Below, one piece after another: positions 56,955 to 57,677 of a DNA stretch of 64,000 nucleotides. The stretch is from the UHGV virus genome UHGV-0109738, one strand, 5' to 3'. Made by a program: the position numbers and the translations under genes. Origin of the DNA: a virus. Below the pieces are notes generated by a model. That model made no database searches, was not told the DNA's origin, and saw only the letters and a list, made by a program, of their open reading frames with translations. Numbering within the stretch: position 1 is the stretch's first letter; every line of letters begins with the position of its first letter.

Positions 56955-57677
56955 ATGCGCAAGTTAACACATGAAGAACAAGTTGCAGCTATCGCGAAAG
57001 TTAATCCTGATGTTGAAGTGTTAGGGGAAATTGTTAATAACAGTACAAAAGTATTATGTCGCTGCAAAGTTTGTAACCATGAATGGTCGGCTACACCTAG
57101 CAATATTAAATATGGACGTGGTTGCCAGAAATGCGCTGGGAATATGAAGTTATCGCATGAAGAACAAATATCGGCTATTGCTAAGGTTAATCCTGATATT
57201 GAAGTGCTGGTTGAAATAGTTAATAACAGTACAAAAGTATTATGTCGCTGCAAGGTTTGTGATCATGAGTGGTCGGCTAAACCTAGAGACATTAAGAGCG
57301 GGCGCGGTTGCCCGAAATGCGCTAAATACGGGTTTTTATCACACTACAACGGAAAACTTTACATCATGGTTGATGATCTTGAAGTGCCTACACAAATGAA
57401 AATTGGTGTAAGCGTAAAAGAGAACGAAAGGAGGAACAGAGTATTTAAAAGTGCTCGTAAGGCAGGTGTAAGGCTGACTGATTTACAGGTAGTTAAAACA
57501 TGGAATGGGCCTACTGAGATTATGCAGGAAATAGAAAGCAAAATGCACGATGCTTTCAGTGACTATAAAATAAACTTCCCTGTTAAGTTTGATGGTAGCA
57601 CTGAATTTTTTTATTACAGGCCGGAAGTATTCGACATGGTAGAAGAAACATATAAAGAGATTGTTTGCTGTCAATAA
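56955..57677 (+). CDS. protein with tandem duplicated zinc-ribbon domains and C-terminal T5orf172/GIY-YIG-like domain
   Basis: Two 57-aa repeats each with CxxC..CxxC; C-terminal KLYIMVDD..KIGVS. Confidence 0.55.
   Translation: MRKLTHEEQVAAIAKVNPDVEVLGEIVNNSTKVLCRCKVCNHEWSATPSNIKYGRGCQKCAGNMKLSHEEQISAIAKVNPDIEVLVEIVNNSTKVLCRCKVCDHEWSAKPRDIKSGRGCPKCAKYGFLSHYNGKLYIMVDDLEVPTQMKIGVSVKENERRNRVFKSARKAGVRLTDLQVVKTWNGPTEIMQEIESKMHDAFSDYKINFPVKFDGSTEFFYYRPEVFDMVEETYKEIVCCQ
56958..57303 (+). repeat. tandem direct DNA repeat (2 x about 171 bp) encoding the duplicated zinc-ribbon
   Basis: Near-identical segments e.g. gctatcgcgaaagttaatcctgatgttgaagtg / gctattgctaaggttaatcctgatattgaagtg and gttaataacagtacaaaagtattatgtcgctgcaa in both. 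Confidence 0.75.

What the first reader, a model, noticed from the sequence alone, without database searches (positions are those of the whole stretch)
56955..57677. Recent tandem duplication of a zinc-ribbon domain in a T5orf172-like protein
The N-terminus contains two 57-aa repeats, each with CxxC..CxxC, encoded by a near-identical about 171-bp direct DNA repeat, followed by a GIY-YIG/T5orf172-like domain. The high DNA identity suggests recent duplication; the gene sits in the replication module between the initiator and helicase.
Basis: seen in the sequence. Interest (0 to 1): 0.45.

Follow-up and report, generated by a model that had tools for sequence, protein, structure and literature searches.

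The report
Shrunken zinc-finger array in phage nuclease
The repeat is real, but it is what remains of an older, variable-length array of zinc-finger DNA-binding modules in a phage homing-endonuclease-like gene, left after one module was recently deleted; it is an ordinary member of a gene type already described in the literature.

Summary
Observation partly confirmed. Gene 56955-57677 (+, 240 aa) begins with two tandem units, each with a CxxC...CxxC zinc site. The period is 186 bp / 62 aa, not 171 bp / 57 aa. DNA identity is 83% over 177 nt (38 differences in 186), not near-identical. Synonymous divergence between the units is about 0.84, so they are old paralogues.

What is recent is a contraction. 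The window gene equals the common 3-unit E. coli prophage allele (307 aa) minus exactly 201 bp in frame, with 1 mismatch in 723 bp. The junction lies in a 58-bp tract that is identical between units 2 and 3. Near-identical alleles with 1, 2 (different junction), 3 and 4 units also exist, including a reciprocal duplication product.

The ORF with its RBS is a discrete cassette. In related prophages the slot is empty or holds other cargo. The cassette sits in a ~985-bp near-identity island within 86-95% identical flanks, which fits a free-standing homing-endonuclease-like gene.

This architecture, and in-frame deletion between its repeats, were described by Barth, Dunham and Seed 2023. It is a new member of a known kind. 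Nuclease activity and homing are inferred, not shown.

The parts
56929..57672 (+). Discrete gene cassette (own ribosome-binding site plus ORF). In related E. coli prophages it is absent or replaced by other cargo.
   Evidence: Homology to the empty-slot prophage L005 (STEC308), to L006 (Rha-KilAC cargo) and to L007 (DUF559 cargo) stops at window 56924-56928 and resumes at 57669-57699.
56941..56946 (+). Shine-Dalgarno-like AAGGAG, 8 nt upstream of the ATG at 56955.
   Evidence: Read directly from the sequence. It lies inside the cassette-specific segment.
56955..57677 (+). ORF of 240 aa, identical to WP_021528819.1, annotated 'zinc-ribbon domain-containing protein' in E. coli.
   Evidence: ORF list. 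The exact sequence is in the public collection on 11 contigs. PHROG 681 'endonuclease' matches at 4e-47.
56955..57140 (+). Zinc-ribbon unit 1 (aa 1-62), which is unit A of the 3-unit allele. Zinc ligands are C37/C40/C57/C60, plus conserved C35.
   Evidence: It is 100% identical to unit 1 of P0001. The AlphaFold model shows helix 6-16 and strands 20-22, 33-37 and 43-46, with pLDDT 84-92.
57141..57326 (+). Zinc-ribbon unit 2 (aa 63-124), a B/C hybrid. Its first ~22 codons match unit B (and unit C) of the 3-unit allele, and the rest matches unit C.
57151..57209 (+). Recombination junction tract. The 201-bp deletion breakpoint can lie anywhere in this stretch, which is identical between units B and C of the 3-unit allele.
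   Evidence: Junction scan: the window equals ABC[:p]+ABC[p+201:] for p = 196-254 with 1 mismatch.
57327..57674 (+). C-terminal T5orf172 / GIY-YIG-superfamily nuclease-like domain (aa 125-240; core aa 133-221). Invariant residues in 66 homologues are Y136, K149, G151, R159, E194, H198 and E217.
56839..57823 (.). Island of near-identity to the 3-unit-allele prophages: 2 mismatches in about 985 bp, apart from the 201-bp indel. The flanks are 86-95% identical.

Best explanation
The gene encodes a free-standing, homing-endonuclease-like protein of the T5orf172 family. It has an N-terminal 'beads-on-a-string' array of CapR/DUF4379 treble-clef zinc-ribbon units, which are inferred to bind DNA. It has a C-terminal T5orf172 (GIY-YIG superfamily) domain, which is inferred to cut DNA.

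The 186-bp direct repeat is the coding sequence of the two array units present in this allele. The units are old paralogues. Their number changes by unequal homologous recombination, or replication slippage, between short identical tracts in neighbouring units.

The window allele was made recently from the common 3-unit allele (A-B-C). A 201-bp in-frame deletion, with its junction in a 58-bp B/C identity tract, left A plus a B/C hybrid.

Shown here: the repeat, the unit divergence, the deletion relationship and junction, the allelic series 1/2/2'/3/4/6, cassette presence or absence at one site, the identity island, the fold, and the conserved motif residues.

Inferred: DNA binding by the units (by analogy with CapR), nuclease activity (by analogy with Odn), homing, and any change of target specificity when a unit is lost.
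For: Repeat and divergence:
- establish the repeat.
- dS is 0.84 and dN is 0.105 between the units.

Contraction and allelic series:
- The window equals the MS 21-1 3-unit gene minus 201 bp, with 1 mismatch in 723 and a junction tract of 58 bp.
- P0135 (L009) is the same 3-unit allele minus 201 bp, but with its junction in a different 41-bp tract and 0 mismatches.
- P0134 (L010) is the 3-unit allele plus a 201-bp tandem duplication, with its junction in that same 41-bp tract and 3 mismatches. It is the reciprocal product.
- P0123 (L011) has 1 unit.
- The 3-unit allele is the commonest, at 176 contigs against 11 for the window allele.
- Family-wide unit counts: 20 proteins with 2 units, 64 with 3 and 36 with 4 among the top 120 cluster representatives. 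mEp013 has 1 and mEp021 has 6.

Domains:
- DUF4379 and CapR score above their Pfam cut-offs, with two stretches each.
- The cysteines are invariant.
- Y136, K149-G151, R159 and E217 are invariant.

Cassette behaviour:
- The slot is empty, or holds Rha-KilAC or DUF559 cargo, with the same boundaries.
- The cassette is 100% identical across backgrounds whose left flank is 91% and right flank 91-100% identical.

Literature:
- The CapR zinc finger binds DNA, and this depends on its cysteines (PMC8096241).
- The T5orf172 protein Odn cleaves DNA in vitro, and E180A abolishes cleavage (PMC8263062).
- T5orf172 homing-endonuclease genes carry repeated CapR/DUF723/DUF4379 domains. ICP1 gp174 lost 228 bp in frame by recombination between its repeats (PMC10448857).
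Against: - No activity is shown for this protein or any close homologue.
- The window protein's own T5orf172 and MUG113 Pfam scores are just below the curated cut-offs.
- I could not identify a target site by comparing alleles with and without the gene.
- Alternative occupants of the same slot include non-nuclease antirepressor-type genes. The site may therefore be a general cargo ('moron') slot filled by ordinary recombination rather than by homing.
- The 3-to-2 direction is inferred from parsimony. It rests on the unique middle-unit sequence, the reciprocal products and allele abundance, not on a rooted phylogeny.
Confidence: 0.75

Rival explanations
1. Recent tandem duplication. A single zinc-ribbon unit was recently duplicated in this lineage, giving two near-identical copies.
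For: Two tandem units exist. Single-unit homologues exist (mEp013 and P0123). The window's two units are more alike than 98.7% of within-protein unit pairs, and they share a 35-nt identical run with permutation P of about 0.005.
Against: The units differ at 38 of 186 nt, with dS about 0.84. The gene differs from the 3-unit allele at only 1 of 723 nt and by an exact 201-bp indel with a homology-tract junction. Unit 2 is a B/C hybrid, not a copy of unit 1. The closely related single-unit allele P0123 is itself an A/C hybrid, that is, a further deletion product.
Confidence: 0.03
2. Domesticated DNA-binding regulator. The protein acts mainly as a sequence-specific repressor or regulator, like satellite CapR or the autorepressor mode of I-TevI, and no longer as a nuclease. 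This would fit a slot that elsewhere carries Rha/KilAC/Bro/Ant regulators.
For: CapR-homology zinc fingers are present. CapR is a repressor derived from such homing-endonuclease genes (PMC8096241). Alternative occupants of the slot are antirepressor-type proteins.
Against: The C-terminal domain is retained in all 66 aligned homologues, with the GIY-YIG-type Y, KIG, R and E positions invariant. That argues for selection on catalysis. CapR itself lacks the T5orf172 domain.
Confidence: 0.12
3. Weapon against competitors (Odn-like). The nuclease targets a rival element such as a satellite, a competing prophage or a superinfecting phage, rather than promoting its own homing. Gain and loss of units retargets it in an arms race.
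For: The T5orf172 protein Odn is such a weapon (PMC8263062), and other E. coli phages have Odn-like proteins (PMC10448857). Unit positions 25-29, 39, 43-45, 47-48, 51 and 53 are hypervariable on a fixed scaffold. Unit number turns over quickly.
Against: There is no RepA_N-like or other borrowed targeting domain. PADLOC gives only a very weak hit (E 0.007). The presence/absence pattern and the identity island are what a selfish homing gene predicts. No target was identified.
Confidence: 0.1
4. Assembly artefact. The 2-unit gene results from collapse of a 3-unit repeat during short-read assembly.
For: Tandem repeats can be collapsed by assemblers, and the window differs from the 3-unit allele by exactly one unit.
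Against: The exact 240-aa protein occurs on 11 contigs from several independent assemblies and has its own RefSeq accession. Units B and C differ strongly over most of their length, and the identical tract is only 58 bp. A second, different 2-unit junction (P0135, at least 24 contigs) and a 4-unit allele also exist.
Confidence: 0.01

Closest known systems
T5orf172 homing-endonuclease genes with repeated CapR/DUF723/DUF4379 zinc-finger domains (ICP1 gp174, gp165 and relatives; Barth, Dunham and Seed 2023, PMC10448857)
   Same: Same architecture: an N-terminal array of treble-clef zinc fingers plus a C-terminal T5orf172 domain. Same 'beads on a string' variable unit number. Same in-frame deletion by recombination between degenerate intragenic repeats (gp174 lost 228 bp; here 201 bp). 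Same location at boundaries of genetic exchange.
   Different: The host and phage type differ: a temperate E. coli mEp021/mEp013-like prophage rather than lytic vibriophages. Here a fuller natural allelic series is seen (1, 2, 2', 3 and 4 units at 0-3 mismatches), including a reciprocal duplication product. Sequence identity to viral proteins sharing this architecture in the BFVD fold search, mostly from lytic coliphages, vibriophages and Klebsiella phages, is low (about 20-30%).
CapR, the capsid repressor of the Vibrio cholerae PLE satellite (Netter et al. 2021, PMC8096241)
   Same: The zinc-finger DNA-binding domain is homologous (Pfam CapR PF21817, 39.4 bits, two stretches). In CapR the four cysteines are required for DNA binding.
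   Different: CapR has no nuclease domain and acts as a repressor. The window protein keeps a T5orf172 domain with conserved catalytic-type residues.
Odn (ICP1 Gp88), an origin-directed T5orf172 nuclease (Barth et al. 2021, PMC8263062)
   Same: It has a C-terminal T5orf172 domain with conserved Arg and Glu. It is the only T5orf172 protein I found with nuclease activity demonstrated in vitro.
   Different: Odn targets DNA through a RepA_N domain borrowed from its satellite target, not through zinc-ribbon repeats. It is a defence weapon rather than a homing gene.
GIY-YIG homing endonucleases of T4 (I-TevI and the Seg proteins)
   Different: The domain order is reversed: the nuclease is C-terminal here and N-terminal in I-TevI and the Seg proteins. 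The DNA-binding part is a tandem zinc-ribbon array instead of a zinc-finger linker plus helix-turn-helix.

Membership tests
CapR / DUF4379 treble-clef zinc-ribbon repeat (PF21817 / PF14311) | Profile match above the curated Pfam gathering score | tested here: met
   DUF4379 scores 56.9 bits (cut-off 24.5) and CapR 39.4 bits (cut-off 24.2), each with 2 stretches.
CapR / DUF4379 treble-clef zinc-ribbon repeat (PF21817 / PF14311) | Four cysteine zinc ligands per unit (two CxxC knuckles) | tested here: met
   C37/C40/C57/C60 and C99/C102/C119/C122 are present. The cysteine columns are invariant in 347 distinct units and 66 aligned proteins.
CapR / DUF4379 treble-clef zinc-ribbon repeat (PF21817 / PF14311) | Zinc-dependent sequence-specific DNA binding | not testable with these tools
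   Shown only for CapR, by gel-shift assays with Cys-to-Ser mutants (PMC8096241). It is inferred here.
T5orf172 / GIY-YIG nuclease superfamily (PF10544, PF13455) | Profile match above the curated Pfam gathering score | tested here: inconclusive
   The window protein scores T5orf172 18.1 bits (cut-off 20) and MUG113 20.4 bits (cut-off 22.3), both just below. The orthologue mEp021 gp12 scores 22.3 and 23.2, both above. Many homologues carry a precomputed PF10544 hit, and NCBI names some of them 'GIY-YIG nuclease family protein'.
T5orf172 / GIY-YIG nuclease superfamily (PF10544, PF13455) | GIY-YIG alpha/beta fold | tested here: met
T5orf172 / GIY-YIG nuclease superfamily (PF10544, PF13455) | Conserved motif residues: Tyr of 'GIY', the second 'YIG'-like motif, catalytic Arg and metal-binding Glu | tested here: met
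   Y136 (KLYIM), K149-I150-G151, R159 and E217 (STEFF) are invariant in 66 homologues. Assignment to catalytic roles is by motif order, not by residue-level superposition.
T5orf172 / GIY-YIG nuclease superfamily (PF10544, PF13455) | Endonuclease activity | not testable with these tools
   Among T5orf172 proteins it is shown only for Odn (PMC8263062).
Free-standing homing endonuclease gene | Presence/absence polymorphism at one precise site in otherwise syntenic genomes | tested here: met
   The slot is empty in STEC308 (L005). Cassette boundaries are about 56929 and 57672. However, the slot also holds non-nuclease cargo (L006).
Free-standing homing endonuclease gene | Gene more conserved than, or phylogenetically discordant with, its flanks (co-conversion tract) | tested here: met
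   The cassette is 100% identical while the left flank is 91% and the right flank 91-100% identical across five loci. The island spans 56839-57823.
Free-standing homing endonuclease gene | Cleaves the allele lacking the gene and is copied into it (super-Mendelian inheritance) | not testable with these tools
   No target site could be inferred from comparing flanks with and without the gene.
Recent tandem duplication | Copies nearly identical, with synonymous divergence close to zero | tested here: not met
   83% identity, dS about 0.84.

The most novel reading that the evidence does not exclude
The zinc-ribbon units may form a modular DNA-recognition array. Each 62-aa unit would read one short DNA sub-site through its hypervariable positions (25-29, 39, 43-45, 47-48, 51 and 53 of the 58-aa core). 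Natural unequal recombination, which adds, deletes and hybridises units as the 1/2/2'/3/4-unit allelic series shows, would then rapidly retarget the attached GIY-YIG-type nuclease. That would amount to a naturally 'programmable' nuclease scaffold with a decipherable recognition code.
Probability: 0.15. Interest if true: 0.6.

Novelty: new member of a known kind. Interest (0 to 1): 0.25.

Why it matters
The finding does not change what is known. It places an E. coli prophage gene annotated only as 'zinc-ribbon domain-containing protein' in the T5orf172 homing-endonuclease class. It corrects the evolutionary reading from duplication to contraction.

Its modest added value is an unusually clean natural allelic series. 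Alleles with 1, 2, 2' (a different junction), 3 and 4 units differ by 0-3 point mutations, and a deletion and its reciprocal duplication share one crossover tract. This shows that unit number in these DNA-binding arrays turns over on very short timescales in temperate coliphages as well.

If unit content sets target specificity, these alleles are ready-made material for testing how such nucleases are retargeted.

Tried and rejected
- NCBIfam gave no meaningful hit.
- PADLOC gave only a very weak PDC-S57 hit at E 0.007. I do not take this as evidence for a defence system.
- A sequence search of the PDB with the family profile found only weak DUF4379 matches to trypanosome mitoribosome assembly factors.
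- The inverted repeat 56912-56926 / 57342-57356 (15 nt, 415 nt apart) was judged to be chance. Its left arm belongs to a short stem-loop at the cassette's left edge.
- The promoter/terminator scan of 56400-57900 found no more sites than shuffles do, and no promoter on the + strand upstream of the gene. The gene is probably read through from the early-right operon; this is an inference.
- I compared the downstream junction in loci with the gene, with an empty slot and with other cargo, to look for a cleavage or target site that co-varies with the gene. The result was inconclusive.
- I considered a replication-accessory role because of the position. I rejected it as the main reading because related prophages with the same initiator, metallophosphoesterase-like gene and DnaB lack the gene or carry unrelated cargo.
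- The paper on the mEp021 phage group (PMC11893012) does not mention this gene.

Full report
**Observation**

The ORF at 56955-57677 (+) encodes 240 aa. Its first 372 nt form a head-to-tail direct repeat.
- The repeat finder reports 56961-57137 vs 57147-57323: 177 nt, 83% identity, spacing 186.
- TRF reports period 186, 2.0 copies, 83% matches, no indels, score 516.
- blastn of unit 1 against unit 2 gives E = 1.9e-49. Ungapped identity over the full 186 nt is 79.6%, against a maximum of 37.6% in 2000 shuffles.

Each 62-aa unit carries CxCxxC...CxxC. The repeat is therefore real and far beyond chance. The period is 186 bp / 62 aa rather than 171 bp / 57 aa. The copies are not near-identical: there are 38 differences in 186 nt.

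**What the protein is**

N-terminal units. Pfam places two DUF4379 'treble clef zinc finger' matches (56.9 bits, cut-off 24.5) and two CapR-homology matches (39.4 bits, cut-off 24.2) on the two units.

C-terminal domain.
- It scores just below cut-off for MUG113 (20.4 vs 22.3) and T5orf172 (18.1 vs 20).
- The orthologue in phage mEp021 (gp12) scores above both cut-offs.
- Many homologues carry a precomputed PF10544 hit or the NCBI name 'GIY-YIG nuclease family protein'.
- PHROG 681 'endonuclease' matches at 4e-47.
- In an alignment of 66 homologues, Y136 (KLYIM), K149/G151 (KIG), R159, E194, H198 and E217 (STEFF) are invariant. So are all the zinc cysteines.

Structure.
- An AlphaFold model (mean pLDDT 87) shows two identical small helix-plus-beta zinc-ribbon modules joined by lower-confidence linkers, followed by a compact alpha/beta domain with pLDDT 90-96.
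- Foldseek against viral models shows the same architecture in many phages. Some are labelled T5 Orf172, treble-clef zinc finger, CapR homology or 'Hef-like homing endonuclease'.
- phmmer against 1.84 billion cluster representatives finds 15,456 proteins at E <= 1e-3, many with long arrays (up to 8 matched two-unit stretches).

**Is it a recent duplication? No**

NG86 divergence between the two units is dN 0.105 and dS 0.84.

The whole gene, in contrast, differs from the E. coli MS 21-1 prophage gene (307 aa, three units A-B-C) by a single nucleotide. The only other difference is an exact 201-bp in-frame gap. The breakpoint can lie anywhere in a 58-bp stretch that is identical between units B and C, which is window 57151-57209. 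The window's unit 2 is thus a B/C hybrid.

The missing part of B has unique sequence (GEITGDKIK..., YSTPKSLKIGSG..., and a 5-residue-longer linker VLKRAQGKK). It cannot be built from the window's two units. The simple direction is therefore 3 to 2.

The 90%-identity cluster of this protein contains a full allelic series, which I verified at the DNA level:

| Allele | Units | Relation to the 3-unit allele | Junction tract | Mismatches | Contigs |
|---|---|---|---|---|---|
| P0001 | 3 | reference (A-B-C) | - | - | 176 |
| Window (P0121) | 2 | minus 201 bp | 58 bp | 1 | 11 |
| P0135 | 2 | minus 201 bp | a different 41-bp tract | 0 | at least 24 |
| P0134 | 4 | plus a 201-bp tandem duplication (reciprocal product) | the same 41-bp tract | 3 | 1 |
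| P0123 | 1 | minus 387 bp (or window allele minus 186 bp) | 8 bp | 0-1 | 10 |

More distant orthologues at the same genomic position have 1 unit (phage mEp013) and 6 units (phage mEp021). Among the top 120 cluster representatives, 20 have 2 units, 64 have 3 and 36 have 4.

Unit number is therefore a fast-changing variable of the family, driven by unequal recombination between short identical tracts. The window carries a contraction product.

One nuance. The window's two units (81% aa) are more alike than 98.7% of within-protein unit pairs, whose mean is 62%. They also share a 35-nt identical run (P of about 0.005). Part of that run comes from the window's single private SNP at 57245, which matches unit 1 at the homologous position. 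This may be a micro gene conversion.

**Genomic context**

The gene lies in the early-right replication module of a prophage related to the mEp021/mEp013 group of temperate coliphages (PMC11893012). The gene order is:
- CI-like repressor (54315-54962, minus strand);
- a small HTH-type gene;
- a Lin1244_N/O-like initiator (55528-56580);
- this gene;
- an HTH-metallophosphoesterase-like gene (57711-58829, PHROG 704);
- DnaB (58848-60269).

Related E. coli prophages with the same neighbours fill the slot differently. Some have this gene, one a Rha+KilAC antirepressor (L006), one a DUF559 nuclease-like protein (L007), and one nothing (L005, strain STEC308).

Homology to all three alternatives breaks at about 56924-56928 and resumes at about 57669-57699. 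The cassette is therefore just the RBS (AAGGAG, 56941-56946) plus the ORF.

Across five loci carrying close alleles, the cassette is 100% identical to the window. The left intergenic flank is only 91% identical, and the right flank varies from 91 to 100%. Against MS 21-1, the near-identity island is 56839-57823, with 2 mismatches in about 985 bp.

Presence/absence at a precise intergenic site, together with an identity island in divergent flanks, is the pattern expected of a free-standing homing endonuclease gene with co-converted flanks. It is also compatible with a generic cargo slot.

**Mechanism: shown versus inferred**

Inferred from the literature:
- CapR's homologous zinc finger binds DNA in a cysteine-dependent way (PMC8096241).
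- The T5orf172 protein Odn cuts DNA in vitro, and E180A abolishes cutting (PMC8263062).
- T5orf172 homing-endonuclease genes typically carry repeated CapR/DUF723/DUF4379 domains as 'beads on a string'. ICP1 gp174 lost 228 bp in frame by recombination between its repeats (PMC10448857).

By analogy, the window protein would bind DNA through its two zinc-ribbon units and cut with its C-terminal domain. Loss of unit B would be expected to change target length or specificity.

In support, 347 distinct units show a fixed scaffold (I11, N15, I24, V31, C33, C35, C38, W42, P46, K50, G54, C55, C58). The hypervariable positions are 25-29, 39, 43-45, 47-48, 51 and 53, which cluster around the zinc knuckles.

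No activity, target or homing has been shown for this protein.

**Comparison and novelty**

This is a member of the T5orf172 homing-endonuclease-like class described in vibriophage ICP1 and its relatives. It has the same architecture and the same mode of repeat recombination. The exact protein is already in RefSeq (WP_021528819.1) as 'zinc-ribbon domain-containing protein'.

The differences are the temperate coliphage setting and the unusually complete allelic series, which includes a reciprocal duplication/deletion pair. I rate it a new member of a known kind, of low to moderate interest.

**Dead ends**

- NCBIfam, PADLOC and the PDB sequence search added nothing.
- The promoter/terminator scan was not above background.
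- No target site emerged from junction comparisons.
- The mEp021-group paper does not discuss the gene.

Noticed in passing
window 55914-56025: Four 11-bp iteron-like repeats ((A/G)GGGTCATGA at 11-bp spacing, 55914-59) are followed by an A-rich tract (55962-56025) inside the initiator ORF 55528-56580. This looks like a lambda-style origin embedded in the initiator gene. The same segment is the most divergent and indel-rich part against L001/L002 (74% identity).
   Followed up: partly
window 56715-56816 (+): A 33-aa hydrophobic small ORF (MDGKHVFALAFAIAAAIAVNVALFGGLFLLVNP) lies in the intergenic region upstream of the cassette. It is conserved in the related loci inspected, including the empty-slot prophage (L005 3662-3782). 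It is annotated in mEp013 (mEp013_13) and called as a gene in L009. It may be a small membrane peptide.
   Followed up: partly
L005, L006, L007 (E. coli prophages), corresponding to window ~56929-57672: The slot between the initiator and the metallophosphoesterase-like gene is a cargo hot spot with fixed boundaries. It is empty in L005, holds a Rha+KilAC antirepressor in L006, and holds a DUF559 nuclease-like protein in L007.
   Followed up: yes
L004 5864-6367 (phage mEp021); window 58829-58848: mEp021 carries an extra HNH_3+AP2 homing-endonuclease-type gene between the metallophosphoesterase-like gene and DnaB. The window has only an 18-bp spacer there. This is a second nuclease-gene insertion site in the same replication module.
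   Followed up: partly
window 57245: The window's only private SNP in the gene is T, where all close alleles have C. It is synonymous (Cys codon). It equals the base at the homologous position of unit 1 (57059), so it may be a micro gene conversion between units.
   Followed up: partly
window 57711-58829 (+): This 372-aa protein has an N-terminal HTH. It matches PHROG 704 'DNA repair exonuclease' at 1e-137 and is annotated as a metallophosphoesterase in some genomes. It sits where a helicase loader would be expected, between the initiator and DnaB. Its role in replication is unclear.
   Followed up: no
L008, L009 vs window 55528-56266: Relatives with the same cassette and the same initiator C-terminus have a different initiator N-terminal domain: HTH_36 instead of Lin1244_N. 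There is thus a recombination boundary inside the initiator gene.
   Followed up: no
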